A program made the translations under genes and the position numbers. Of a stretch of DNA of 35,414 nucleotides, positions 10,010-25,403 are shown piece after piece. The DNA is from Allosphingosinicella sp. (GTDB lineage: Bacteria > Pseudomonadota > Alphaproteobacteria > Sphingomonadales > Sphingomonadaceae): the NCBI GenBank assembly GCA_036399955.1, contig DASWMB010000065.1:1-35414 (forward strand), written 5' to 3'. Within the stretch, counting starts at the first letter, position 1, and the number at the start of each line of letters is the position of its first letter. The notes beneath the pieces were generated by a model. The model ran no database searches and was not told where the DNA came from. It worked only from the letters and a program-made list of their open reading frames with translations.

Positions 10010-10237
10010 ATGCGCGATCTGAACAAGTCCGAACTGACGTTCGTCTCGGGCGGCCATGGCGGCTGCTACACCCCGCCCCCGCCCTGCCCGCCGACCCCGA
10101 CCTGCCCGCCCTCCGGCGGCCGCACGAAGAACAACAACGGCTTCGGCAACGGCCCCGAGTCCGGCGACGCCCCGGGCAATTCGGGCCGGAACAACTCGCC
10201 CAGCGCGAGCGACAAGCAGAACAACCGCGGCCGCTAA
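10010..10237 (+). CDS. small peptide with double-glycine-type leader (75 aa)
   Basis: MRDLNKSELTFVSGG leader; GGAGA SD about 6 nt upstream; GC-ending codon use; own intrinsic terminator downstream. Confidence 0.75.
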   Translation: MRDLNKSELTFVSGGHGGCYTPPPPCPPTPTCPPSGGRTKNNNGFGNGPESGDAPGNSGRNNSPSASDKQNNRGR

Positions 10238-13265: not shown

Positions 13266-15227
13266 TCAGAGGCCGAACGGGTACATGTCGTCCTCGCCGG
13301 GCTGAGTCTCGCCCGGGAGTGGGGCCACCGCCTGCGTCTCGTCGAACCAGACCCAGGCGTCGAACTGGTTGGGGAGGACGGCCTGCGAATAGTGGCTCCA
13401 GCGCTCCGTCTCGGGGCGGTAGATGACGCCGATGAAGCGCTCGAGCCGCGGCTCCAGCAGAGCTTCGACGGCCGCCTCGTTCACGCCCTGCCGCATATCG
13501 AGCAGGAAGCGCGGCACGCCCGCATCGTGGCAGACGCGCTCGTAGCTTCCGGCGAGGGAGGGGCGGACGTCCTTCACTTCCATTTCGCCGTCCCAGTCGC
13601 TGGCGGCGGCGACGGTCCCCGTGTGCGTGCCGAAGCCGATCAGGCGGGAGGATTCGCCGAAACGCTCCTTGACCAGCTGGCCGATGTTGAGCTCGCCCCG
13701 GACCTGCCCCATCTCGGTGTGGGCGGCATTGCCGATGTGGCTGTTGTGCGCCCAGACCACGGCCTTCGAGTCCGCGCCCTTCGCTTCGAGGATCTGGAGG
13801 AGGGTCTCGAACATGTGCGTGTCGCGCAGGTTCCAGCTCTCGGCGGAGCCGTAATACATGACGCGGTAATATTGCTCGGCATTCTTCACGAGCCGCGCGT
13901 TGGCGGCGGCGTCGAGCCATTCGTCGCCGTCCTCGCCGACATAGTTCATCCGCTTCTGGAGCAGCTCGCGGAGCATCTGGATGACCTGCGCCTCGCAGCG
14001 GCCATAGCCTTCGCTGATCGCCATCCGGCCATAAGCCTGCGGATCGCGGCTCCACGGCATCAGGCAGCCGTAGCGCTCGCGCGCGACCGCCGCGGCTTCG
14101 GGGTCAACGTCGTCGAGATAGTCGATCACGGCGCGGATCGAGCCGCCCATGTTGTAGAGGTCGAGGCCGTAGAAACCCGCCATCGCCGCATTGTCGCGCG
14201 CGTGATTGTAGCGACGGAGCCAGCGGACGAAGGCGTCCACCTCCGCGTTGCGCCACATCCAGGTCGGGAAGCGGGAGAAGGGGCTCTCCTCCCCGTCCCT
14301 CTCCGGCCGGTGGCGGATGGAGCGGTCGATCGAGGCCGCGTCCGGCCAGTCGGCTTCGACGGCGACGATGTTGAAGCCGTGCCGCTCGATCAGGCGGCGC
14401 GTGATCGCGGCTCGAGCGCGGTAGAATTCGGACGTGCCGTGGCTCGCTTCGCCCAAGAGCACGACGCGGGCAGTGCCCAAGCGGTCGAAGAAATCGGCGA
14501 AGGTGGGATCGTCGATGTCCGGCAGCGGCTCGGCCGCCTCGCGCACGACCTCGGCGAGGGGGCGGGAGCGGCCGCCATTCGCGTTCCAGGCGTGGGCGCC
14601 GATCAAAGGCACGAAGCGAACCGCGCCCAATTCCTCCTGCTCGTAGTCGTCCTCGTCGACCCGCGTGACCTTGACCAGCTTCTGGACTTCTTCGGGCTCG
14701 CCGATCGGCATGACGAGCCGGCCCCCGATTTCGAGCTGCTGCAAGAGGACGTCCGGCACGTGGCTTCCGCTCGCCGAGCAGAGGATCGCGTCGAACGGCG
14801 CTTCGCTCGGGAGCCCACCGGTGCCGTCCCCCTCGTAGACCGAGACGTTCTCGGAGCCGAGCCGCTCGAGCCGCGCGCCGGCGAGCTTCGCCAGCTCGGC
14901 GTGGCGCTCGATCGCGAAGACCTGGTCGGCGAGCTGCGCGAGAACGGCGGCCGCATAGCCGGAGCCGGCGCCGACCTCGAGCACCCGGTCCTGCGGCCGG
15001 ATCTCGGCTGCCTCGATCATCAGGGCGACGATATAGGGCTGAGATATGGTCTGCTCCTCCTCGATCGGGAGCGGGCCGTCCTCATAGGCACGCTCGCGCG
15101 CCTTTTCGGGCACGAACTCCTCTCGCGGCACCGCGCGAAAGGCGGCGAGGATGCGCTCGTCTCGCACGCCGCGCGCTGCGATCTGGCGCTCAACCATGCG
15201 CTCCCGCAACTCGGAGAAGTCGGTCAT
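13266..15227 (-). CDS. pcm: protein-L-isoaspartate O-methyltransferase fused to erythromycin esterase-family domain
   Basis: N-terminal QTISQPYIVA, VLEVGAGSGY, APFDAI, VRFVPL; C-terminal LLGEASHGTSEFY, EADWPDA, WNLRD, WAHNSHIG. Confidence 0.92.
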   Translation of the reverse strand: MTDFSELRERMVERQIAARGVRDERILAAFRAVPREEFVPEKARERAYEDGPLPIEEEQTISQPYIVALMIEAAEIRPQDRVLEVGAGSGYAAAVLAQLADQVFAIERHAELAKLAGARLERLGSENVSVYEGDGTGGLPSEAPFDAILCSASGSHVPDVLLQQLEIGGRLVMPIGEPEEVQKLVKVTRVDEDDYEQEELGAVRFVPLIGAHAWNANGGRSRPLAEVVREAAEPLPDIDDPTFADFFDRLGTARVVLLGEASHGTSEFYRARAAITRRLIERHGFNIVAVEADWPDAASIDRSIRHRPERDGEESPFSRFPTWMWRNAEVDAFVRWLRRYNHARDNAAMAGFYGLDLYNMGGSIRAVIDYLDDVDPEAAAVARERYGCLMPWSRDPQAYGRMAISEGYGRCEAQVIQMLRELLQKRMNYVGEDGDEWLDAAANARLVKNAEQYYRVMYYGSAESWNLRDTHMFETLLQILEAKGADSKAVVWAHNSHIGNAAHTEMGQVRGELNIGQLVKERFGESSRLIGFGTHTGTVAAASDWDGEMEVKDVRPSLAGSYERVCHDAGVPRFLLDMRQGVNEAAVEALLEPRLERFIGVIYRPETERWSHYSQAVLPNQFDAWVWFDETQAVAPLPGETQPGEDDMYPFGL

Positions 15228-15253
15228 AGCCAAGGCTCCCGTCAGGTCGAGTA

Positions 15254-15278
15254 AACTTGGCGGAGCCGCCCGCGTTCC
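15254..15278 (-). promoter_or_regulatory. EcfG-type promoter for the pcm fusion
   Basis: GGAAC-N16-AGTT on the minus strand, about 27 nt upstream of ATG. Confidence 0.65.
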
Positions 15279-15321
15279 TGACCGGAGCGCTCATGCCCGC
15301 GGGGCTTTGCGCGGGCGCGCC

Positions 15322-15346
15322 GGAACCGCTCCCCTCTCCGACGATT
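15322..15346 (+). promoter_or_regulatory. EcfG-like promoter for ku-ligD
   Basis: GGAAC-N16-GATT (imperfect -10), about 32 nt upstream of ku. Confidence 0.5.
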
Positions 15347-15378
15347 GAACCGGAAACGAATCGATTGGAGCACATCGC

Positions 15379-16302
15379 ATGGCCGCGCGCGCGTACTGGA
15401 AGGGTCAGATCAGGCTGGCGCTCGTCTCGATCCCTGTCGAGATCTTCTCCGCCACCAAGAGCGGGGCCTCGATCGCCTTCAACCAGATCCACGAGCCGAC
15501 CGGCAAGCGGATCAAGTACGAGAAGGTCGTGCCCGGCGTCGGTCCGGTCGATCCCGAGGAGATCGTCAAGGGCTTCCAATATGAGAAGGGCAGCTACGTC
15601 CTCCTCAACGACGAGGAGCTCGAGGCAGTGAAGCTCGAATCGAAGAAGACGCTCGAGCTCACCCAGTTCGTCGACTATGACGACATCGACGTCCTCTATT
15701 ACGAAAAGCCCTATTTCGTGGTGCCGGCCGACGACCTCGCCGAGGAGGCGTTCATCGTCCTTCGCGAGGCGCTGAAGCGGACGCGCAAGGTGGGGATCGG
15801 CCAGCTGGCGCTCAGGGGCCGCGAATATCTGGTGAGTGTGAAACCGTGCGGCCGCGGCCTCGTGCTCGAGACGCTGCGCTATGCCGACGAGGTCAACAAG
15901 GCGCGAGACTATTTCCGCGACATCGCCGAGCACAAGCCCGACGAGGACCTTCTCGACCTCGCCGAGACGCTGATCGAGCGCAAGACGGCGGAGTTCGACC
16001 CGTCCAAGTTCCACGACCGCTATATCGAGGCGATGCACGACCTCATCGAGCGCAAGCGCAAGGGCAAGACGCTCCATACGGAGGATGACGAGACGCCGGC
16101 GCGCGGCACCAACGTCATCGACCTGATGGCGGCGCTGAAGCGCTCGATCGACACAGGAAGCGGGAGCAAAGGCTCGGCCGGGGATGGTGCGAAGAAGGGC
16201 GCGGCCGCGAAGCCTGCCGCTGCAGCGAAGAAGGCGGCCGCGAAGAAAGCGCCGGCGAAGAGCGCGCCCGCCAAGGCGGCGCCGGCGCGGAAGCGGGCCT
16301 AG
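15379..16302 (+). CDS. ku: NHEJ Ku protein
   Basis: RAYWKGQIRLALVSIPV, IVKGFQYEKG, NVIDLMAALKRS, Ala/Lys-rich tail. Confidence 0.96.
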   Translation: MAARAYWKGQIRLALVSIPVEIFSATKSGASIAFNQIHEPTGKRIKYEKVVPGVGPVDPEEIVKGFQYEKGSYVLLNDEELEAVKLESKKTLELTQFVDYDDIDVLYYEKPYFVVPADDLAEEAFIVLREALKRTRKVGIGQLALRGREYLVSVKPCGRGLVLETLRYADEVNKARDYFRDIAEHKPDEDLLDLAETLIERKTAEFDPSKFHDRYIEAMHDLIERKRKGKTLHTEDDETPARGTNVIDLMAALKRSIDTGSGSKGSAGDGAKKGAAAKPAAAAKKAAAKKAPAKSAPAKAAPARKRA

Positions 16303-16325
16303 ATCCGACTGTGGCGCATGAAATA

Positions 16326-16414
16326 CCGCTCGGGCTGAGCGTGTCGAAGCCCTGCCCTTTCCTCTGCTTCAGCGAAGGTGAAGGGCAGCCCTTCGACAAG
16401 CTCAGGGCGAACGG
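16326..16414. repeat. REP-like palindromic element (family A), intergenic
   Basis: Imperfect 34-bp inverted arms CCGCTCGGGCTGAGCGTGTCGAAGCCCTGCCCTT / AAGGGCAGCCCTTCGACAAGCTCAGGGCGAACGG. Confidence 0.8.
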
Positions 16415-16425
16415 AGTTTGTCTCC

Positions 16426-19035
16426 ATGGCTGAGCGTTCCGATCCGCTCGCCCGGTACAACGAAAAGCGCGACTTCACGAAGACCGCCGAGCCGCGGGGC
16501 ACCTACGACACGCTGTCGTGGGGACATGGCAACGGCTTCATGGTTCAGAAGCACGATGCCACACGGCTGCACTGGGACCTGAGGCTGGAGCTCGACGGGA
16601 CGCTGAAGAGCTGGGCGGTGCCGAACGGGCCGAGCCTCAACCCGGACGACAAGCGCCTCGCCGTCCGGACGGAGGACCATCCGCTCTCCTACGCGACCTT
16701 CGAGGGGACGATCCCGAAGGGCGAATATGGCGGCGGGACGGTGATGATGTGGGACCGGGGCACCTGGACGCCGGCTCCGGGCAAAGATCCGCGCAAGACG
16801 CTTGAGGAAGGGCATCTCCACTTCACCCTCGACGGCGAGCGGATGCAGGGCGAATGGGTGATGTTCCGCCTCAAGCCCAAGCCCGGTGAACGGCGCGGCG
16901 TCGAGAACTGGATGCTGAAGAAGGTCCGCGACGAGCATGTCGGCGGATCGATGGGGCTGACCGAGACGTACCTCACGAGCATCAAGACCGGGCGGACGAT
17001 GCAGGAGATCGCCAGCGGCAAAAAGGCCAAGGAGCTGGCGAGCTGGAAGAAGGGATTAGCTCCTCCCCGGCACGGGGACGGGGACCGGCTGAAGGCTGGT
17101 GGAGGGGATCGAGCGAAGCGAGCTTTGGAGACGCGGGCCCCCTCCACCACCGCCGCTTCGCGTCGGCGGTCCCCCTCCCCGTCCCGGGGAGGAGCTAAGA
17201 AGCGCTCATCCACGCCGCCCCCCTTCCGAGAGCCGCAGAAGGCGACGCTGGTCGATCACGTGCCGGAAGGGGCCGGCTGGATCCACGAGATGAAATATGA
17301 CGGCTATCGCTGCCTGCTCGCGGTCGGCGGCGGCCAGGCGAAGGTCTATACGCGCTCCGGCCTCGACTGGTCGGACAAGTTCCCCGAGATCGTCGAGGCG
17401 GCGCGCGCGATCGAATGCGACACGGCGCTGATCGACGGCGAGATCGTGAAGCTCGACGAGAAGGGGAATACCGGATTCTCGGCGCTCCAGCAGGCAATCT
17501 CCGAAGGCGGGCGCGGCCTCACCCTGTTCGCCTTCGACGCCCTCGAGATCGACGGGGAGGACCTGGCGCCGCTCGCCAACATCGAGCGCAAGGGGCGGCT
17601 GGCGACCCTGCTCGGGCCGGGCCGGCCGCCGCATATCCTCTATGCCGACCATATCGTCGGCCATGGCGAGAAGCTGTTCGATGCGATGTGCGAGGCGGGC
17701 CAGGAAGGGATCATCTCGAAGCGCGCCGATGCCCCCTATCGGGGCCGGCGGACCAAATGCTGGCTGAAGGTCAAGTGCACGCTGCGCCAGGAGTTCGTCA
17801 TCGTCGGCTGGTCCGAAAGCGACAAGAAGGGCCGCGGCTTTCGCGCGCTGCTGCTCGCGACCCGGGACGGCGGCGAGCTGCGTTATGCGGGCAAGGTCGG
17901 AACCGGTTTTTCGAACCAGATGCAGCACGACCTGCGCGCACGCTTCGAACGGCTCGCGGCGGACAAAGCCGCCGTCGCCGTCCCCCGCGCCGATGCGCGC
18001 GGCGCGCATTGGGTGAAGCCCGAGCTCGTCGCCGAAGTCGCTTTCGCCGAGTTCACGGCGGACGGCGTCGTCCGGCATGGAAGCTTCCTCGGGCTGAGGA
18101 CGGACAAGAAGGCGAGGGACGTGGTCCGCGAGCTGCCGCAGAAGGCACCGGCCGCCGCCCGCCCCTCCGCGGGAGACGGGATCAAGATCAGCAATCCCGA
18201 GCGGGTGCTCTGGCCCGAGGCCGGGGTGACCAAGCAGGAGCTGGTCGACTATTATCGCGCCGTGGGTCCGATGATGGCGGCGTGGGCGGCGAACCGGCCG
18301 CTCTCGCTCGTACGCTGTCCGCAGGGGCGATCGAAGAAATGCTTCTTCCAGAAGCACAATACGGCGACCTTCGGACCGCAGGTCCGGCAGATCGAGATCG
18401 AGGAGAAGAAGGGCGAGCGCGTCGACTATGTCTATGTCGAGGATGTCGCCGGCCTCGTCGCCTGCGTCCAGATGGGGACGATCGAGTTCCACGGCTGGGG
18501 CTCGTCCGTCGCCGATATCGAGAAGCCCGACCGGCTGGTCTTCGACATCGATCCGGATGAGGGCCTCGGCTTTTCCGAGGTGAAGCGAACCGCGCGCGAC
18601 CTTCACCGCTATCTCGCCGACATGGGGCTGCAGAGCTTCCCGCTGACCACCGGCGGCAAGGGGCTCCACGTCGTCGTCCCGCTGACGCCCGAGGCGGAGT
18701 GGCCGCAGGTCAAGGATTTCGCCCAGCGCTTCTGCGTCGCGCTGGCGACGGCGGAGCCGGAGCGGTTCACCGCCAACCTCGCCAAGGTGAAGCGCAAGGG
18801 CCGGATCTTTCTCGATTACCTCAGGAACCAGCGCGGCGCGACGGCGATCCTCCCCTACAGCGCGAGGGCCCGCGACAACGCCACCGTCTCGGCACCGATC
18901 AGCTGGGACGAGCTCGACGATCTCCAGGGTGGCAACATCTACACCGTCCGCGACGCCGAGCTGCTGGTCGAGCGCGCGTCCGGACGTGCGCTCCAGGGCT
19001 GGGGCGAAGCGAGTCAGGCCCTGCCGAATTTTTAA
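16426..19035 (+). CDS. ligD: DNA ligase D (phosphoesterase-ligase-polymerase)
   Basis: QKHDATRLHWDLRLE phosphoesterase; EMKYDGYR ligase; RCPQG, PDRLVFDIDP and TTGGKGLH polymerase. Confidence 0.97.
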   Translation: MAERSDPLARYNEKRDFTKTAEPRGTYDTLSWGHGNGFMVQKHDATRLHWDLRLELDGTLKSWAVPNGPSLNPDDKRLAVRTEDHPLSYATFEGTIPKGEYGGGTVMMWDRGTWTPAPGKDPRKTLEEGHLHFTLDGERMQGEWVMFRLKPKPGERRGVENWMLKKVRDEHVGGSMGLTETYLTSIKTGRTMQEIASGKKAKELASWKKGLAPPRHGDGDRLKAGGGDRAKRALETRAPSTTAASRRRSPSPSRGGAKKRSSTPPPFREPQKATLVDHVPEGAGWIHEMKYDGYRCLLAVGGGQAKVYTRSGLDWSDKFPEIVEAARAIECDTALIDGEIVKLDEKGNTGFSALQQAISEGGRGLTLFAFDALEIDGEDLAPLANIERKGRLATLLGPGRPPHILYADHIVGHGEKLFDAMCEAGQEGIISKRADAPYRGRRTKCWLKVKCTLRQEFVIVGWSESDKKGRGFRALLLATRDGGELRYAGKVGTGFSNQMQHDLRARFERLAADKAAVAVPRADARGAHWVKPELVAEVAFAEFTADGVVRHGSFLGLRTDKKARDVVRELPQKAPAAARPSAGDGIKISNPERVLWPEAGVTKQELVDYYRAVGPMMAAWAANRPLSLVRCPQGRSKKCFFQKHNTATFGPQVRQIEIEEKKGERVDYVYVEDVAGLVACVQMGTIEFHGWGSSVADIEKPDRLVFDIDPDEGLGFSEVKRTARDLHRYLADMGLQSFPLTTGGKGLHVVVPLTPEAEWPQVKDFAQRFCVALATAEPERFTANLAKVKRKGRIFLDYLRNQRGATAILPYSARARDNATVSAPISWDELDDLQGGNIYTVRDAELLVERASGRALQGWGEASQALPNF
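17056..17198. repeat. palindromic element (family B) in frame inside ligD
   Basis: 32-bp arms TTAGCTCCTCCCCGGCACGGGGACGGGGACCG / CGGTCCCCCTCCCCGTCCCGGGGAGGAGCTAA (2 mismatches) plus inner TGGTGGAGGGG / CCCCTCCACCA. Confidence 0.8.
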
Positions 19036-19854: not shown

Positions 19855-20380
19855 GGAACTTGTCGTGGCAGTTCGAGCAGGACTGCCGCAGCGCCGGAAG
19901 CTGCGCCCGCACCGCCTCGAGATTGCCGCTCTGCGCCGCCCGGTTGAACTCGCCCGAGACCTGCTCGAAGCGCTGGGCGGCGGCGCGGAAGGTCGCCGCA
20001 TCGGACCAGATCTCGGCCTTGGCGCGGGTCTTGCCGGCCTCGGGACCGCTGCCTTCGGGGAACCAGGTGAGGATCTGCGGGCCGAAGCCTGCGACGACGC
20101 CTGCGTGGCGCTGAATGGCGGCGATGTCGGGGCTGCTTCCCTTCAGCTGGTCGCCGATCCCCTTCATCGCCCGGCCCATTTCCTCATAATGCTCGTGGCG
20201 GGCATGCATGATCGCCTTGTGGTCCTGCGGCGTCCCCTGCCCCGAGGCCACGTTCGTGACGGCTTCGTTCTGCTGGCCGTTCGTCTCCGACGAGGCGTTG
20301 TTGCCGTCGCCGCCGCTATTGCACGCCGCGGTGACGATCACCGCCGCGACCGAAACGATCGTGAAAAACCTGTTCCTCAT
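19835..20380 (-). CDS. class II cytochrome c (c'/c556), predicted lipoprotein
   Basis: C-terminal CSNCHDKFR, FPEGS, AKAEIW; lipobox-like VTAAC; GGAGG SD. Confidence 0.9.
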   Translation of the reverse strand: MRNRFFTIVSVAAVIVTAACNSGGDGNNASSETNGQQNEAVTNVASGQGTPQDHKAIMHARHEHYEEMGRAMKGIGDQLKGSSPDIAAIQRHAGVVAGFGPQILTWFPEGSGPEAGKTRAKAEIWSDAATFRAAAQRFEQVSGEFNRAAQSGNLEAVRAQLPALRQSCSNCHDKFRGPDDH

Positions 20381-20412
20381 GCGCTCACCTCCGCTTGCCG
20401 CGCCGATGAAGG

Positions 20413-20438
20413 AATGCGTGCGGGGGCGCAAGCGTTCC
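20413..20438 (-). promoter_or_regulatory. possible EcfG-type promoter for cytochrome c'
   Basis: GGAAC-N17-CATT on the minus strand. Confidence 0.4.
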
Positions 20439-20485
20439 GGGACGAACAGGCGGGACCGTGTGACGAGGCGGCCGCGTGATGTGAA

Positions 20486-20651
20486 AGCCCCTCTCCCATT
20501 TCGGGAGAGGGAGGGGCCCGCCGCCGCAGGCGGTGGGAGGGTGAGGGCACGGCGGGTCGGGACCGCGGCGCCACCTGGTTGCACCGTCGTGCCCTCACCC
20601 TCCCATTGCTGCGCAATGGGCCCCTCCCTCTCCCCTGCAGGGAGAGGGACT
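20486..20651. repeat. palindromic element (family B), intergenic
   Basis: CCCTCTCCC..GGGAGAGGG hairpins at both ends; GGGAGGGTGAGGGCACG / CGTGCCCTCACCCTCCC central inverted repeat. Confidence 0.8.
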
Positions 20652-20657
20652 CGGGGT

Positions 20658-21332
20658 TTACGCCCTCTCGGCGATCTTGGACCAGCTGTTGCCCTCGATG
20701 CTGTGGTCGCCCCAGCGCCAGGTGCGGCCTTCGCCGTCGAAGACGCGGACCGAAAGGAGCGCGCCGTAGCCGCCGGTCTGGCGCGGGTTGACCCACCAGC
20801 CGGCCGACGGGTCGAACAGCTTCACCTCGCCGTCGCCGACGACCAGCGCGCAGGCTTCGTGATAGATCACGTCCTCGTCGATCCAGTGGGTGGAGACCTT
20901 TTCCTCCTCCCACTTGCCCTGCCACTGGGATGTCGCCTCGGTCGTATATTGCTGGACGAACTGGGCGGGGAAACTGACGAGGCCGCGCTCGGCGAAGAGC
21001 TCGCGCGCCATGCAGCCCAAAGCGCCGCAATCGAGCGTGTCGCGCTCGACCGCGTCGCACCAGTGGATCGGCCAGCCCGAGGGCCCCCAGGTCCAGCGCT
21101 GCCGCAACCACCGCGGGCCGCTCAACGCGTCGGCGCCGTTCAGCTGGGCGAAGTCGTAGGCCATCACCCACTCGCGGGCGACGTCGCAGCATTCCGCGCC
21201 GTGATGCGAGATGCAGCTGTAAGGGAAGGCCTCCCAGCGCGCGCTCGGGCAGGGCCGCGGCGCGACCTCCGGCTCGAGGATGAGATCGAGGCGGTTATCC
21301 GCGGCCGAATACATAGGACATGCTCCTGTCAT
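20658..21332 (-). CDS. hypothetical protein, transglutaminase-like (papain-fold) Cys-His-Asp pattern
   Basis: LDCGAL..MARELF...G, then YHEAC and FDP in transglutaminase-core order; overlaps the end of the upstream gene (alternative ATG at 21314). Confidence 0.55.
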   Translation of the reverse strand: MTGACPMYSAADNRLDLILEPEVAPRPCPSARWEAFPYSCISHHGAECCDVAREWVMAYDFAQLNGADALSGPRWLRQRWTWGPSGWPIHWCDAVERDTLDCGALGCMARELFAERGLVSFPAQFVQQYTTEATSQWQGKWEEEKVSTHWIDEDVIYHEACALVVGDGEVKLFDPSAGWWVNPRQTGGYGALLSVRVFDGEGRTWRWGDHSIEGNSWSKIAERA

Positions 21333-23571
21333 AACCGCCGGCGTCGCAGAACACGATGAGGTCGCCGGCTTGCGTGCCTTCGGGAAGCTTGACGTTCGTC
21401 GCGACGATGTCGTGCTCCATGCACAGCCGGCCCATCAGATGGGTCTTGCCGCGCGTCAGCGCCTGCCATTCGCCGGTCCGCCTGCACTTCCGAAGCATGC
21501 GGTGGGGGTAGAAGAAATACATCGGGAGCTCGGCGATCGAGGCGTCGACGACCGCCTCGACGCGCTCGTCCTCATGCTCCTGGACCTCGAGGACGCGCAT
21601 CGCGAGCGCCATCGAGGGCTGCGCCATCGCCTTGCCGGGCTCCGAGACGATCTGGCGGACGCCGGGCAGCATCGCGCGGACGGTCTCGACCGCCTTGGCG
21701 AAATCGCCCTCCTCGCCGTCGTGCCAGTCGTCCGGGAACCAGCCGCCGCCCATGTCGAGGATCTCGATGGTGCGGCCCGAGAGCTTCTCGATCGAGCGGC
21801 ACCATTTCAGGATCGATTCGAACAGGTGCCACCACTGGGCAACGCCGATATTCGCCGAGGCCATGTGGAAATGGACGCCGAACTTCGTGTCCGTGGGAAG
21901 CCGCTTGACGCCGTCGACGAGCTTCCTGAACGTGCCGGGGCTGTCGAGCGGGATGCCGAAGCGCGAGACCACGTTCGGGGTGCGGATGCGGATGCCGACC
22001 GTGTTCGACGCAAGATCGCCCGCCTCCAGCGCCGCCACCGTCCGTTCGAGGTCCGCGATCGAATCGCAGAAGACGGCGTGGAGCGGCCCGTCCGGGAGCA
22101 TGTTCTCGGGCCACCATTTGCCGGGGCCGTTCAGGATGCATTCGTCGGTGCGGAAGCCGACCTTCAGCGCCGCCTGGATCTCGGCGAGGCTGATCCCTTC
22201 GGCGAGGAAACCGTTGTCGCGGGCGAGCTTGATGAGGCGCGGGTCCGGATTGGTCTTGATCGAATAGGCGTTCACCACCTGGGTCTCGTTGGTGCTGAGC
22301 CGGTGGGCGCGCTCGTTCGCCTTCTTGAACAGCGATTCCGCCGTCGATTCGAGGAACAGGAATTCGGGCGTCTGGACGGTGTCGAAGTCCATGCTCGAAA
22401 GGTCCGCGATGAAGCTGTCGGGGACCTTGGGCGCCTCGCCGCCCGTGTCCGCGATCTCCTCCGCCTCGAGCAGTGCCGCGTCGCGCTTGTGGAGGCGCTC
22501 GGCCAGCGAGGGAAGGCCAGAGGGGTGCTTCATCGAATGGCCGATCGCGCCGGCAAAGGGCTCCGGGAGCGGCGGAAGCGGGTAATCGGGACGCACGGGC
22601 ACTTCGAGGACGACGCGAGTGAACTCTTCGCTCTCGGCGCGCTCGGGCCGGGCGATGACGCCGGTCGCCGCCTGGACGAGGCGAGCGGGAAGGTTGGTGC
22701 CGGCGATGGTGGCGCCGTGCACCCAGGCGGGGAAGCGCGGATTCCACTCGAGCAGCCAGAGCTGGTTCTTCGGGTCGCGCACCATCTCCAGCTCGCCGCC
22801 GCCGGTCCAGTTCAGCTCGCGCACGATCCGGCGGAGCGGGCGGAGGAACTCGTCCGGGACCGTGCCGATGTCCCCTGCCCAGGTCTTGCCCTCCGGCGTG
22901 ATGTCGCGCTTGCGCATCGACACGGCGCCGAGCAGCTCGCCGCGATAGGCCGAGAGCATCACCGATTCCTCATAGCCGCCGACATGGGCCTGGAGGAAAA
23001 GCTTGCTCGTCGACCAGACCTTGGTGAGCGCATTGCGGGCGGCTTCGAACACGTCCCAGCTCGGCGTCCGCGCGGCGTCGTAATAGGGGCCTTTCAGCCA
23101 GACGCGCCAGTTGTGCTGGCGGCAGAAGGCGTGGAGGTCCCAGTCGGGAAGATCGGTCGAGACCCAGGTCGGGATCGTGACCGGAAGGCCTTCATGCGCC
23201 TCCACGTCGGGCTTTCCGATCCGCTTCAGCGCGCCCATCGGCGGCGCGAGCAGGTTGCGGTGCCCTTCGGGGAAGACGTCGGCGAGCCACAGCGCCTCGA
23301 GATCGCTGCCCGAGATCCAGCAGGCGCCGCCGTCGAGCAGCGCCCTCACCTTCTCGGCATAGCTGTCGAGATCGAGCTCGTCCCATGGGCGCTGGATCCA
23401 GAGATCGTCCAGATCCTGCCAATGTATTCCGGAAACCCTGTTGGAATATTCGACGCCGATCAGCGTCGCGTTGGGGAAGCCCTGCCGCAGGGAGCGAATG
23501 ATTCCGACGCCGGGCTGCGGATTGCCGCCGGAATAGAGGCCGCTGACATAGATCTTCATGTTCGAAAGCAA
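21295..23571 (-). CDS. ATP-grasp ligase fused to fold-III PLP-dependent (Orn/DAP/Arg-type) decarboxylase
   Basis: N-half WLKGP, LFLQ, ELEM, LLEWNPRFP; C-half AYSIKTN (PLP Lys), LNGPGK, SRFG, HFHM, LDMGGG, SEPGK, GRLCMEHD, AGGY; TTG start after GGAGAGG or ATG at 23559. Confidence 0.85.
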   Translation of the reverse strand: MLSNMKIYVSGLYSGGNPQPGVGIIRSLRQGFPNATLIGVEYSNRVSGIHWQDLDDLWIQRPWDELDLDSYAEKVRALLDGGACWISGSDLEALWLADVFPEGHRNLLAPPMGALKRIGKPDVEAHEGLPVTIPTWVSTDLPDWDLHAFCRQHNWRVWLKGPYYDAARTPSWDVFEAARNALTKVWSTSKLFLQAHVGGYEESVMLSAYRGELLGAVSMRKRDITPEGKTWAGDIGTVPDEFLRPLRRIVRELNWTGGGELEMVRDPKNQLWLLEWNPRFPAWVHGATIAGTNLPARLVQAATGVIARPERAESEEFTRVVLEVPVRPDYPLPPLPEPFAGAIGHSMKHPSGLPSLAERLHKRDAALLEAEEIADTGGEAPKVPDSFIADLSSMDFDTVQTPEFLFLESTAESLFKKANERAHRLSTNETQVVNAYSIKTNPDPRLIKLARDNGFLAEGISLAEIQAALKVGFRTDECILNGPGKWWPENMLPDGPLHAVFCDSIADLERTVAALEAGDLASNTVGIRIRTPNVVSRFGIPLDSPGTFRKLVDGVKRLPTDTKFGVHFHMASANIGVAQWWHLFESILKWCRSIEKLSGRTIEILDMGGGWFPDDWHDGEEGDFAKAVETVRAMLPGVRQIVSEPGKAMAQPSMALAMRVLEVQEHEDERVEAVVDASIAELPMYFFYPHRMLRKCRRTGEWQALTRGKTHLMGRLCMEHDIVATNVKLPEGTQAGDLIVFCDAGGYDRSMSYVFGRG

Positions 23572-23719
23572 TACCTCTCCGTCGCCGGGAACCGGCGTGA
23601 TGCGCGAAAAGTTCGTCGCCGAACTTGATGTGGACTGTAAGCGGCGCGATAGACGTAAAATACTGTTGCGCCACCAACACAGATTAAGGCGGATATTTTT
23701 TAAAAACCGAGACCCGTTG

Positions 23720-23744
23720 AACGGCGGAGCGCCCCGCAGGTTCC
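23720..23744 (-). promoter_or_regulatory. consensus EcfG promoter for the ATP-grasp/decarboxylase operon
   Basis: Exact GGAAC-N16-CGTT on the minus strand. Confidence 0.7.
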
Positions 23745-23815
23745 GTTACGGTTCCGAAGCAGCCATTTGCGCCCCGGGCACAAGGGCTTAGCGCGCGAGA
23801 AGGGTATCGAGAAGG

Positions 23816-24484
23816 ATGGCCGGAGCGTTGCTTTACCCGAGCTATATGGACCTCGATCCCTGGATCGACGTGGCTTGGCTGAAGTCGCTCGACGGCTTCG
23901 TCACCGAGCGGCTGATGGAGCGGCTCGACGCTGCCGGCGATCTTGCATTCTACACGGGTCCGTTCCTGCTCAGCGACGCGGCGCCCCGCCTACCCGGTTC
24001 GCGAATGGTCTCGCTGACCGCGGGGGGGAACGAGGATTATTACGCGCTCGGCCAGGCGGACGTCTGGCGGCCGACGGCGGAGGCGAAGGCGTTCGCCCCG
24101 CTGATGGAATTTATCGCCACGCTGCCGTTCGAGGCCACGGGGCGGATGATCATCATGTACGACTTCGACGGCCGCGCCGTGCCGGCCCATCGCGACCATG
24201 AGAGCGCGGAGCTGTGCCACGAGTTCGTCTGGTTCCGGACGAACTTTTCGAAGCGCTTCTACATGCTGAACCCGGAGACGGGGGAGAAGCGCTACGTTTC
24301 CTCGCACAGCGCCTGGTTCGACACGGTCAATCAGTATCACGGCGCCGACGCGGCCCGCGGTCTGTCGTTCAGCATCCGCGTCGACGGCCGCTTCTCCGAC
24401 GACTTCCGCCGGCAGATCCCGGACGCGGCGGCCAATCCGGCGAGCGCGCCGGCGCTTTGGGCGGCGGCCGTCGTGGCACGATGA
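23816..24484 (+). CDS. hypothetical protein, putative Fe(II)-dependent cupin/DSBH oxygenase
   Basis: HRD (HxD) plus a distal His in WFDTVNQYHG, within beta-rich sequence resembling Asp/Asn beta-hydroxylase-like proteins; ORF well supported, function tentative. Confidence 0.5.
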   Translation: MAGALLYPSYMDLDPWIDVAWLKSLDGFVTERLMERLDAAGDLAFYTGPFLLSDAAPRLPGSRMVSLTAGGNEDYYALGQADVWRPTAEAKAFAPLMEFIATLPFEATGRMIIMYDFDGRAVPAHRDHESAELCHEFVWFRTNFSKRFYMLNPETGEKRYVSSHSAWFDTVNQYHGADAARGLSFSIRVDGRFSDDFRRQIPDAAANPASAPALWAAAVVAR

Positions 24485-24510
24485 GAAAGGGGCGGCCGAA
24501 GCCGCCCCCC
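24483..24510 (-). terminator. hairpin between convergent genes, likely terminator
   Basis: GGGGCGGC-CGAA-GCCGCCCC with TTTCTC following on the minus strand. Confidence 0.65.
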
Positions 24511-24533
24511 CAACGTCCCTCGAGAGGAACGAC

Positions 24534-24698
24534 TTATTGCGGGCCGAAATTCTTGTCGGCAGGGCCCTTGTAGCTCTCGCCGGGCGAGTGCGCCGGATTG
24601 CGCCGGCTGGGATGCTGGCCCGGCGGGAAGGGATGGCTGGCGGGCTTGTTGCCGCCGCCGGCGACGAGACCGAGCTCGTCCGTGTGAAGGTTGCGCAT
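24534..24698 (-). CDS. small peptide with double-glycine-type leader (54 aa, not in ORF track)
   Basis: Hand translation MRNLHTDELGLVAGG-GNKPASHPFPPGQHPSRRNPAHSPGESYKGPADKNFGPQ; strong GAGGAG SD; terminator downstream. Confidence 0.75.
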   Translation of the reverse strand: MRNLHTDELGLVAGGGNKPASHPFPPGQHPSRRNPAHSPGESYKGPADKNFGPQ

Positions 24699-24832
24699 GC
24701 TTTTCTCCTCTGTGCCGCGCGCCGAGGAGTAGCGCGCCGCCGAGGCAGGAATTCAGAAGCGGCGCGAAGGTTCAACGCCCCATTTACGCGTGTCCCGGAA
24801 CGGGACGATCGGCGCGCCTTTCCTGAAAGCCG

Positions 24833-24864
24833 AAAAAAAACGCCCCGGCCGGAGCCGGGGCGTC
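24833..24864 (-). terminator. intrinsic terminator of the glycine-zipper gene
   Basis: CGCCCCGGC-TCCG-GCCGGGGCG followed by T8 on the minus strand. Confidence 0.85.
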
Positions 24865-24901
24865 TTCCAATCGCGAAGCCTGGATACTGGGCTCCGAGTT
24901 C

Positions 24902-25207
24902 TTAGCGGCAGCGGCGGGCGCTGCGGCCCCTCTGGACCTCGCGGCCGACCAGCGCGCCGACGGCGGCGCCGAGGATGGTGCCGGTGGCCCGCGAACGGCC
25001 GCCGTCGAGCGCGCGGCCGACGAGGGCGCCGCCGGCGCCGCCGACGATGAGGCCGGTGGTCCCGTTCGAGCGGCGGCAATAGATGCGGCCGTCGCGGCCC
25101 TGCCAGGTCGGCCCGTTATAGGCCTGGGCATGAGCGGTGGTGGTCATGACCGGCAGCGCCGGAACCGCGAGAGCCGCAGCCGAGGCGGCGATGAGAATCT
25201 TGCGCAT
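24902..25207 (-). CDS. glycine zipper 2TM domain protein
   Basis: Signal peptide; GTTGLIVGGAGGALVG...GTILGAAVGALVG; GAAGGAG SD. Confidence 0.9.
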   Translation of the reverse strand: MRKILIAASAAALAVPALPVMTTTAHAQAYNGPTWQGRDGRIYCRRSNGTTGLIVGGAGGALVGRALDGGRSRATGTILGAAVGALVGREVQRGRSARRCR

Positions 25208-25384
25208 GTGAATACTCCTTCACTCATTTTCTCTCTCGCGGGAGGTGCGGGCCCCGCGGGATGTGTGAAGGTCTAGACCGATTCGCCTGAGCCCCGTCTG
25301 AATCGAGGCGTTAGCTGAGGTTCAGGAGGATCAACGGGCGCGGCGCGCCGGGTAGCGGCTCGCTTCTCAATGTAAAGAGTTCGG

Positions 25385-25403
25385 TTAACGGCTTCTTTAC
25401 CAT
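25385..25403. promoter_or_regulatory. possible CtrA-box variant
   Basis: TTAA-N7-TTTACCAT in a divergent intergenic region. Confidence 0.35.

What the first reader, a model, noticed from the sequence alone, without database searches (positions are those of the whole stretch)
20658..24698. Candidate new peptide/small-molecule biosynthetic system: ATP-grasp-decarboxylase fusion + transglutaminase-like enzyme + Fe-oxygenase + GG-leader peptide
Seen: four adjacent genes of no housekeeping function: an amide ligase/PLP decarboxylase fusion overlapping a Cys-His-Asp protein, a divergent HxD...H protein, and a 54-aa double-glycine-leader peptide (core with Gln, Lys, Glu, Asp, His, Pro) that the ORF track misses. 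Known: butirosin AHBA side-chain assembly uses similar logic (BtrJ ATP-grasp, BtrK fold-III decarboxylase, a hydroxylase, papain-like transferase BtrH), and ATP-grasp enzymes, transglutaminase-like proteases and Fe/2OG hydroxylases all act in RiPP pathways. Inference: either the peptide is a RiPP precursor given a ligated, decarboxylated or hydroxylated residue, or the enzymes build an amine-containing unit that is transferred to a target. I do not recognise this combination as a described pathway. Linkage of the oxygenase and peptide to the operon rests only on adjacency, and they are separate transcription units.
Basis: partly seen in the sequence, partly recalled or inferred. Interest (0 to 1): 0.85.

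Follow-up and report, generated by a model that had tools for sequence, protein, structure and literature searches.

The report
Self-tethering ligase-decarboxylase module with hydroxylase
Three neighbouring genes form a real, undescribed module of soil bacteria that likely builds a small hydroxylated amino-amide on a lysine of its own main enzyme instead of on a separate carrier protein, while the small peptide next to them is a bystander.

Summary
All four genes are real. Three belong together. The ATP-grasp/PLP-decarboxylase fusion is followed by the transglutaminase-fold Cys-His-Asp gene in 67 of 67 testable genome loci. The 2-oxoglutarate/Fe oxygenase lies beside them in 66 of 78 loci, in three gene orders across three phyla. 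The double-glycine peptide does not belong (1 of 78 loci; found unlinked elsewhere), so the RiPP reading fails. No carrier protein was found, so this is not a butirosin- or closthioamide-type member. Distant clades keep the pair but carry a urea-transporter-like channel instead of the oxygenase. A lysine in the fusion's variable linker (K344) survives motif swaps and is lost in dead-ligase copies. In split relatives a similar lysine sits on the decarboxylase's tail, beside an RRE gene in one locus. Best model (about 50%): an acidic amino acid is ligated to K344, hydroxylated, decarboxylated and cut off by the cysteine enzyme. One clade with an intact ligase lacks the lysine. An EcfG-type stress promoter precedes the fusion in 24 of 39 sphingomonad loci. 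Substrate, product and complex are untested. The scan found this module before on other DNA, and the lysine idea came from those notes.

The parts
21295..23559 (-). FUS: ATP-grasp ligase fused to a fold-III (alanine-racemase-fold) PLP decarboxylase, 754 aa
   Evidence: Pfam/NCBIfam; best PDB match is FigC/FslC 7kh2, E 9e-27; conserved residues
22603..23559 (-). ATP-grasp domain (res 1-319); K116, K156, K217, K225, E256, E258, N273 and R275 conserved; the Gly-rich loop is short
   Evidence: standalone relatives end just after the FxRVVxE motif
22372..22602 (-). Pro-rich variable linker (res 320-396) holding a conserved island K344-H-P-S-G; the K344 codon is at 22530-22528 (inferred tether)
21298..22371 (-). 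Decarboxylase domain (res 397-754): K435, H565, G604-606, E640, C713; family signature C-M-E-x-D
   Evidence: FigC catalytic residues from PMC7857480 passages
20658..21314 (-). TGL: transglutaminase-fold Cys-His-Asp enzyme, 218 aa, overlapping the FUS stop; triad C102/H158/D174 plus invariant H44, C48, C49, C92 (numbering from 21332)
23816..24484 (+). OXY (type A): 2-oxoglutarate/Fe(II) oxygenase, nearest folds proline 3-hydroxylase, Cpz10 and AspH; clade-specific tailoring member
23720..23744 (-). EcfG-type (general stress response) promoter motif GGAAC-N17-GTT pointing at FUS; not shown to be active
   Evidence: motif definition from PMC6599016 passages
24534..24698 (-). 54-aa double-glycine-leader peptide: a real gene, NOT part of the module

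Best explanation
The fusion, the cysteine enzyme and the oxygenase are one inherited module that likely builds a small hydroxylated amino-amide on Lys344 of the fusion's own linker and then likely cuts it off. Shown: the three genes, their folds and conserved catalytic residues, their co-inheritance, no carrier gene among the neighbours scanned, and the conservation pattern of Lys344. Inferred steps: (1) The ATP-grasp domain activates the side-chain carboxyl of Asp or Glu and joins it to the Lys344 amine. (2) OXY hydroxylates the tethered unit; some loci add a second OXY, a TauD-family oxygenase, a GNAT or a SET protein. (3) The linker swings to the PLP site, which removes the alpha-carboxyl and leaves a beta-alanyl- or aminobutyryl-type unit, possibly for further rounds. 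(4) TGL cleaves the amide through a Cys102 acyl-enzyme and hands the unit to water or to an amine acceptor. In this genus the operon is probably switched on by the EcfG general stress sigma factor, so a stress-protective role is more likely than an antibiotic one. The peptide gene is not involved.
For: Co-inheritance: TGL follows FUS in 67 of 78 GTDB loci, and the 11 misses all end within 2 nt of the FUS match. TGL is also found in 39 loci with FUS at 34-53% identity. OXY-A lies in 66 of 78 loci: 39 divergent, 21 upstream on the same strand, 6 downstream. FUS and OXY occur in the same 10 of 60 related genomes, and 29 of 30 FUS-positive genomes among 121 of the family of G243 have OXY. No carrier: no PP-binding hit among 110 small and 92 larger neighbours or among 94 proteins, 93 of them from distant loci; 95% of CtaD-like loci have one (PMC7183216). 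Lysine: K-H-P-S is present in 90 of 91 OXY-clade fusions, and all 19 channel-clade fusions keep a Lys at the same spot although the motif becomes K-Y-G or K-K-G. A Lys falls in linker positions 19-34 in 71 of 84 anchored 50%-cluster representatives, against 21, 25 and 14 of 84 in three other windows. Of 97 representatives, 8 lack it; 4 of those have 7-9 of 12 ligase residues changed with the decarboxylase intact, against 2 of 89 with two or more catalytic changes among those that have it. Dead-ligase rows are scattered on the tree (4 changes, at least 2 forced). Two split relatives carry a Lys motif on the decarboxylase's N-terminal tail; one has a PqqD/RRE gene, and both have an M23 peptidase-channel fusion with no TGL hit. 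The decarboxylase is closest to FigC, whose clade acts on conjugated amino acids. TGL's fold neighbours include isopeptidases and acyl transferases.
Against: There is no biochemical or complex evidence, and no model of FUS was made. One well-supported clade (7 labelled rows) keeps the ligase residues and mostly H-P-S-G but lacks the Lys directly before it (one has a Lys at -2) and has E197 changed to H/Y/F. P0153 and P0186 also lack the Lys. Loss of the Lys along with a dead ligase is equally expected if it is a catalytic or docking residue. The split-relative argument rests on 2 loci, and the RRE-leader motif is recalled, not tested. Asp/Glu as substrate comes only from the BtrJ/CtaD analogy, while the best structural relative, FigC, acts on N-acyl-ornithine. 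TGL fold matches are weak (Z 7.0-7.7, rmsd 3.0-5.2; no Foldseek hit at E<=0.001). One distant locus (L181, FUS in two pieces) has no TGL. Four loci with long flanks lack OXY nearby, and in two of their genomes none was found. The EcfG motif ends about 160 nt upstream, while the best-scoring EcfG sites cluster within 100 nt; it is absent from 15 of 39 sphingomonad loci, and its carriers are mostly one genus.
Confidence: 0.5

Rival explanations
1. Carrier-free small-molecule route like FigA/FigC. The ligase acylates a free amino acid (for example the side-chain amine of ornithine, lysine or diaminobutyrate), the fused decarboxylase removes CO2, OXY hydroxylates, and TGL cyclises, condenses or trims the product, perhaps a compatible solute. 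Lys344 is a structural or catalytic residue.
For: FigC is the best PDB match and shares C-M-x-H-D. No carrier gene was found. A urea-type channel in 20 distant loci suggests a small neutral product. One clade has an intact ligase without the Lys. EcfG motif.
Against: It does not explain why only the Lys is kept when the motif is swapped. It also does not explain why split relatives carry a Lys tail on the decarboxylase, with an RRE gene in one.
Confidence: 0.25
2. Protein or cell-envelope modification in trans. FUS adds and decarboxylates a residue on another protein or on peptidoglycan, and TGL erases or transfers it.
For: TGL's fold neighbours act on proteins and cell-wall isopeptides. AspH-like, SET and GNAT accessory genes are typical of protein modification. 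Split relatives carry an M23 peptidase.
Against: No conserved target gene was found in the 78 GTDB or the metagenome loci examined. No hydrophobic signal or membrane segment in the three enzymes. A small-solute channel is the partner in distant clades.
Confidence: 0.14
3. Thiotemplated as in butirosin and closthioamide, but borrowing the housekeeping ACP or CoA, or one of TGL's invariant cysteines, as the thiol carrier.
For: The enzyme logic matches CtaD/CtaF/CtaG. TGL has four invariant Cys.
Against: No dedicated carrier was found in any locus, against 95% of CtaD-like loci. It leaves the Lys344 pattern unexplained.
Confidence: 0.08
4. RiPP: the 54-aa double-glycine peptide is the substrate of the three enzymes.
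For: Adjacency in the window and in one close relative, L017.
Against: It is present in 1 of 78 loci, and no other GG-leader ORF was found in them. It is unlinked in G022 and occurs without FUS in G003. It is transcribed convergently with OXY, and sister peptides are dispersed in the genome.
Confidence: 0.03

Closest known systems
Closthioamide CtaD (ATP-grasp) / CtaF (fold-III decarboxylase) / CtaG (papain-like transacylase) with carriers CtaE/CtaH (PMC7183216: passages and section 8 read)
   Same: Ligase plus conjugate-acting decarboxylase plus Cys-His-Asp transferase; Asp is loaded and decarboxylated to beta-alanine in rounds.
   Different: Here the ligase and decarboxylase are fused and no phosphopantetheinyl carrier was found. 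TGL matches transglutaminase/NAT folds; CtaG appears only among weak Foldseek rows (E>0.2). A 2OG/Fe hydroxylase is added.
Butirosin AHBA module BtrI/BtrJ/BtrK/BtrO/BtrH (as described in PMC7183216 and PMC7857480 passages; BtrO detail recalled)
   Same: Ligate, decarboxylate, hydroxylate, transfer; BtrK matches the decarboxylase profile at E 2e-16.
   Different: No carrier, no aminoglycoside genes; the hydroxylase is 2OG/Fe rather than flavin-dependent; the ligase and decarboxylase are fused.
FigA/FigC (FslA/FslC) rhizoferrin pathway, with SbnH and AcsE (PMC7857480: passages read)
   Same: Closest decarboxylase structure (7kh2, E 9e-27), shared C-M-x-H-D loop; ligate-then-decarboxylate without a carrier.
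   Different: The ligase is ATP-grasp, not an NIS synthetase. FslC model score is 71 against a cut-off of 500. No siderophore exporter or receptor is conserved; TGL and OXY have no counterpart.
AspH / proline 3-hydroxylase / Cpz10-type 2OG-Fe hydroxylases
   Same: Fold (Z 10.3-10.5, rmsd 3.2-4.2, 148-178 aligned) and HxD...H plus S-x-R residues.
   Different: No Pfam or PDB sequence match, identity 10-17%; substrate unknown.
Amino-group and lysine carriers (LysW/AmCP, biotinyl/lipoyl arms, EF-P beta-lysylation) - recalled, no call
   Same: A substrate is held by an amide bond to a protein and released by a peptidase, or carried on a swinging lysine.
   Different: Here the proposed tether lies inside the enzyme's own linker, carries no cofactor, and is the amine partner; untested.

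Membership tests
Thiotemplated ATP-grasp/decarboxylase pathways (butirosin, closthioamide) | ATP-grasp ligase with intact active site | tested here: met
   Pfam ATPgrasp_Ter E 4e-6 (below cut-off), profile match to biotin-carboxylase-type domains, conserved K116/K156/E258/N273/R275
Thiotemplated ATP-grasp/decarboxylase pathways (butirosin, closthioamide) | Fold-III PLP decarboxylase | tested here: met
   Pfam above cut-off; K435, H565, E640, C713 conserved
Thiotemplated ATP-grasp/decarboxylase pathways (butirosin, closthioamide) | Cluster-encoded phosphopantetheinyl carrier protein | tested here: not met
   No PP-binding hit in 110 of 138 small neighbours scanned (most of those left out were repeats from near-identical loci), 92 larger neighbours or 93 proteins from distant loci; the same scan does detect PP-binding in an unrelated locus
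Thiotemplated ATP-grasp/decarboxylase pathways (butirosin, closthioamide) | BtrH/CtaG-family transacylase | tested here: inconclusive
   Cys-His-Asp triad and papain/transglutaminase-like fold present, but no Pfam hit and best rows are transglutaminase/NAT folds
Thiotemplated ATP-grasp/decarboxylase pathways (butirosin, closthioamide) | Thioester intermediates | not testable with these tools
   needs biochemistry
RiPP with double-glycine precursor | Precursor gene co-inherited with the enzymes | tested here: not met
   1 of 78 loci; unlinked or FUS-free in 2 genomes
RiPP with double-glycine precursor | RRE or C39 transporter in the cluster | tested here: not met
   None among neighbours scanned; the genome's two C39 matches are on contigs C11 and C127
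FslC/FigC N-citrylornithine decarboxylase (rhizoferrin) | FslC equivalog score | tested here: not met
   71 bits against a cut-off of 500
FslC/FigC N-citrylornithine decarboxylase (rhizoferrin) | NIS synthetase partner | tested here: not met
   No IucA/IucC hit among neighbours scanned
Diaminopimelate decarboxylase (LysA) | LysA equivalog score and C-E loop | tested here: not met
   92.8 bits against a cut-off of 297.9; the loop is C-M-E-x-D. JGI names it so automatically
2OG/Fe(II) oxygenases | Double-stranded beta-helix with HxD...H and 2OG-binding Arg/Ser | tested here: met
EcfG regulon | GGAAC-N17-20-GTT upstream, at a conserved distance | tested here: met
   24 of 39 sphingomonad loci at -171 to -198, 0 of 37 others, background 1.2%; PRK09191 response regulator above cut-off in the genome (its name PhyR is recalled)
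EcfG regulon | EcfG-dependent transcription | not testable with these tools
   needs RNA data or a reporter assay

The most novel reading that the evidence does not exclude
A pantetheine-free assembly line in which the enzyme is its own carrier. A fused ligase-decarboxylase loads Asp or Glu on a lysine of its own swinging linker, decarboxylates it, possibly in rounds (a short nylon-3/4-like oligoamide), lets plug-in hydroxylases, acetylases or methylases decorate it, and a new transglutaminase-fold family releases it. In sphingomonads of dry soils it would serve as a general-stress product.
Probability: 0.4. Interest if true: 0.87.

Novelty: new variant of a known kind. Interest (0 to 1): 0.66.

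Why it matters
Genome-mining rules for this chemistry look for a carrier protein, so they would miss this module. It is deep (97 full-length 50%-identity clusters among the best 150 hits) and occurs in Alphaproteobacteria, Acidobacteria, Verrucomicrobia, Burkholderiaceae and a Streptomyces plasmid. If the lysine model holds, it is a new way to tether intermediates and can be tested with one purified protein and mass spectrometry. It would also give substrates to two unannotated enzyme families. The EcfG link would add an unknown metabolite to the alphaproteobacterial stress response. Cultured carriers exist, for example Sphingomonas xinjiangensis DSM 26736 (L013).

Tried and rejected
RiPP reading: rejected (see rivals). 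Pfam, NCBIfam and PDB sequence searches for TGL and OXY gave nothing useful. Viral contigs: no relative of OXY or FUS. TGL was not found in 200 other Sphingomonadales genomes sampled. Long TGL fusions: 2 hits (P0278, P0279) that look like assembly deletions or frameshifts. Sequencing runs: no RNA holder listed. Rfam: no match in the window. The sigma-70 scan found no promoter-like site in 20300-25400 and did not call the GC hairpin between OXY and the peptide as a terminator. The idea that the segment before K344 is conserved specifically for OXY was not supported: it tracks overall identity, and the channel clade also has a Pro-rich segment. A Y-x-x-P-x-L leader remnant in the linker is present in 68 of 90 OXY-clade fusions but in only 3 of 97 distant representatives (21 with a loose pattern; Pro-rich region), so it is not used as evidence. 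A SyrP-like label for the TauD neighbour is recalled only: PDB and NCBIfam gave At3g21360-like and weak clavaminate-synthase matches, and I saw the SyrP papers only as a search listing. Plasmid decarboxylase hits H5, H9, H15 and H24 were other systems or unannotated. The careful tree did not finish; the quick tree was used. Literature: searches (1 hit, closthioamide; 0; 29 papers, 25 listed, none describing this by title or abstract start; 1, unrelated; 0; 0) found no description. The 2009 ATP-grasp amidoligase survey could not be read and may mention these gene neighbourhoods. No supplements were opened.

Full report
1. Observation. The four ORFs are present. FUS runs 21295-23559(-); homologues start at the ATG at 23559. 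Pfam finds a weak ATP-grasp and a clear fold-III PLP decarboxylase. The Cys-His-Asp gene (TGL) starts at 21314, inside the end of FUS: 64 of 65 fusions use TAT at the overlapping Tyr, creating the ATG, against 48% TAT at other Tyr codons, and the Atlas holds the protein from that Met. OXY is 23816-24484(+) and the peptide 24534-24698(-). The contig is from a 65%-complete genome whose nearest named relatives are Allosphingosinicella.

2. What the proteins are. The TGL model (pLDDT 89) matches only transglutaminase, arylamine-acetyltransferase and isopeptidase folds at the top of the list (Z 7.0-7.7, rmsd 3.0-5.2, 117-163 aligned). Foldseek had no hit at E<=0.001, and the Atlas gave Transglut_core clusters at 0.91-0.93. 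C102 and C92 are in 40 of 40 rows of a distant set (window plus 39 loci), H158 in 38, and D/N174 in 38; H44, C48 and C49 are in 39-40, a possible metal site (inference). The OXY model (pLDDT 92) is a 2OG/Fe oxygenase nearest proline 3-hydroxylase, Cpz10 and AspH, with HxD...H and S-x-R invariant. The decarboxylase is closest to FigC (E 9e-27), ahead of DAPDC and BtrK, and keeps the catalytic set listed for FigC (PMC7857480 passages). That paper places FigC, SbnH, AcsE, MccE and BtrK in one clade with DAPDC and D-ornithine decarboxylase, and says that members other than those two usually serve specialised metabolites. I did not place FUS on that tree. LysA and FslC model scores are far below cut-off.

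3. What belongs together. Of 110 confirmed GTDB stretches the tool kept 80, giving 78 loci from sphingomonads, Caulobacteraceae, Pyrinomonadaceae, Chthoniobacterales and Burkholderiaceae. TGL is in 67, and the other 11 end within 2 nt of the FUS match. OXY-A is in 66, in three arrangements (39, 21, 6). Of the 12 misses, 8 are cut short on one side; 4 have long flanks (L003, L009, L033, L056), and for L009 and L033 OXY lies elsewhere in the genome while for L003 and L056 none was found. Among 60 related genomes the same 10 have FUS and OXY, side by side, one with OXY in two pieces. Among 121 genomes of the family of G243, 30 have FUS and 29 of these have OXY; no OXY was found without FUS (this count includes unpublished G256, and is 28 of 29 without it). 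Kin are not independent, but the link survives gene-order changes in three phyla. Optional extras in the 78 loci are a second OXY subfamily (12 loci, always with type A), one GNAT family (12 close members plus one divergent), a TauD-family oxygenase (11) and SET proteins (5).

4. The peptide does not belong. It is in 1 of 78 loci, the close relative L017, and a leader-pattern scan found no other. Of 60 related genomes two have a clear homologue: G022, on another contig than its FUS, and G003, where no FUS was found. The genome holds three more such peptides, one about 1.5 kb from a C39 peptidase gene.

5. Distant relatives. The ATP-grasp profile found 1117 representatives, and 97 of the best 150 are full-length fusions at 23-58% identity with a C-M-E-x-D loop. 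In 76 metagenome loci and a Streptomyces plasmid, TGL follows FUS wherever the contig continues, except L181. Below about 54% identity no locus has OXY. Instead 20 loci, several near-identical, have a urea-transporter-family gene after TGL (Pfam confirmed for the 10 sent). The plasmid has a fatty-acid-desaturase-like gene there. So the core is FUS+TGL, and the window carries the hydroxylase version. No carrier protein turned up among the neighbours scanned, whereas 95% of CtaD-like loci have one (PMC7183216).

6. The linker lysine. Earlier scan notes proposed that the fusion carries its intermediate on a linker lysine; I took the idea from them and tested it. K344-H-P-S-G is an island of 71-83% conservation in a linker otherwise at 13-57%. 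It is in 90 of 91 OXY-clade fusions (1 could not be anchored), and all 19 channel-clade fusions keep a Lys there although H-P-S is gone. A Lys lies in that window in 71 of 84 anchored representatives, against 14-25 in control windows (about 5 of the 13 misses are anchoring errors). Eight of 97 lack it, and four of these have a wrecked ligase site with an intact decarboxylase, against 2 of 89 (the Fisher p of 3e-4 ignores kinship). The dead-ligase rows fall in separate places on a decarboxylase tree. Two split Acidobacteriota loci have an ATP-grasp that ends where the linker would start, a decarboxylase whose N-terminal tail reads [WY]-x-K-P-x-L...G-x-x-N-K-F, and a urea-channel/M23-peptidase fusion with no TGL hit; one also has a PqqD/RRE gene, and the other's contig ends first. 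Against: a 99%-supported clade with intact ligase residues lacks the Lys before H-P-S and has E197 changed, and two further rows lack it. A catalytic or docking role would give the same co-loss. No complex or FUS model could be run.

7. Regulation. GGAAC-N17-GTT lies at 23744-23720(-), the only match in the window. It is at -171 to -198 in 24 of 39 sphingomonad-type loci (group assigned by hand from record titles), 0 of 37 others, with a background of 1.2% of random 300-nt windows; the boxes are conserved while the spacer varies. It fits the EcfG motif of S. melonis (PMC6599016 passages). The genome has 53 such sites and a PRK09191 regulator above cut-off. Caveats: the distance is longer than typical, most carriers are one genus, and OXY has the motif in only 2 of 37 such loci.

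8. Mechanism. Shown: genes, folds, residues, linkage, no carrier found, lysine pattern, promoter motif. Inferred: ligation of Asp or Glu to K344, hydroxylation by OXY, decarboxylation, release by TGL, and a stress-related role. I give this 0.50, free intermediates 0.25, modification of another protein or the envelope 0.14, a borrowed thiol carrier 0.08 and the RiPP 0.03. That the three genes are one amide/amine-building module of unknown product is far more certain (about 0.9).

9. Known systems and novelty. It works like CtaD/CtaF/CtaG and BtrJ/K/O/H but fails their defining carrier test, and it is not FslC, LysA or a RiPP. Six literature searches found no description; the 2009 amidoligase survey was unreadable and subscription papers are not covered. 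The scan has met the module before in other genomes. This window adds exclusion of the peptide, whole-genome co-occurrence of OXY, the co-loss test and the EcfG motif. I class it as a new variant of a known kind, and as categorically new if the self-tether is confirmed. Interest 0.66.

Noticed in passing
window 10010-10237 (+): A second double-glycine-leader-like ORF (75 aa, Cys/Pro/Asn/Gly-rich) in the same window; no Pfam hit.
   Followed up: partly
G000:C11:1715 and L207 (C11:3210); C156:2579; L083:1498-1824: More dispersed GG-leader peptides: one lies about 1.5 kb from a C39 peptidase gene. The C156 peptide resembles one that sits in tandem with the homologue of the window's peptide in G003.
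   Followed up: partly
window 23674-23688: A conserved AT-rich, near-palindromic element (TTAAC-N4-GTTAA-like) just downstream of the EcfG motif in the aligned sphingomonad loci; possible regulator site.
   Followed up: no
window 24489-24508: A GC-rich hairpin between the convergent OXY and peptide genes; a similar one follows the peptide homologue in L083, so it travels with the peptide.
   Followed up: partly
window 20488-20655: Several short inverted repeats (CCCTCTCCC...GGGAGAGGG type) between TGL and the cytochrome c' gene, REP-like by eye.
   Followed up: no
P0260 (1182 aa): A fusion with long low-complexity inserts whose N-terminus resembles, by eye, the C-terminal end of TGL placed before the ATP-grasp; it keeps K-G-H-P-S. 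Possibly eukaryotic; origin not determined.
   Followed up: partly
P0143, P0146, P0157, P0184, P0202, P0213, P0222: One clade with an intact ligase, E197 changed to H/Y/F, mostly an N-terminal P-L-P-G loop, and no Lys directly before H-P-S: probably a changed acceptor; gene context unknown.
   Followed up: partly
P0142, P0178, P0209, P0263, P0240: Fusions with a decayed ATP-grasp site but an intact decarboxylase, arising more than once.
   Followed up: partly
L107:14911-16428; L168:6597-7415; L179:148-834; L169:5709-6389: Other tailoring genes beside distant copies: fatty-acid desaturase-like, fatty-acid hydroxylase, NNMT-type and small methyltransferases.
   Followed up: no
L200 (G606:C66), L201 (G553:C59): Split relatives: ATP-grasp, decarboxylase with Lys tail and urea-channel/M23 fusion, with a PqqD/RRE gene in L200; each is followed by a roughly 300-aa ORF with no Pfam hit.
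   Followed up: partly
G009:C6:34639-35142: OXY in two pieces with a gap in the match, next to an intact-looking FUS.
   Followed up: no
window 13266-19035: PCMT-erythromycin-esterase fusion, Ku and LigD lie 1.6-7 kb from the module; PAS/HWE kinases and other stress-type genes recur near it in relatives.
   Followed up: no
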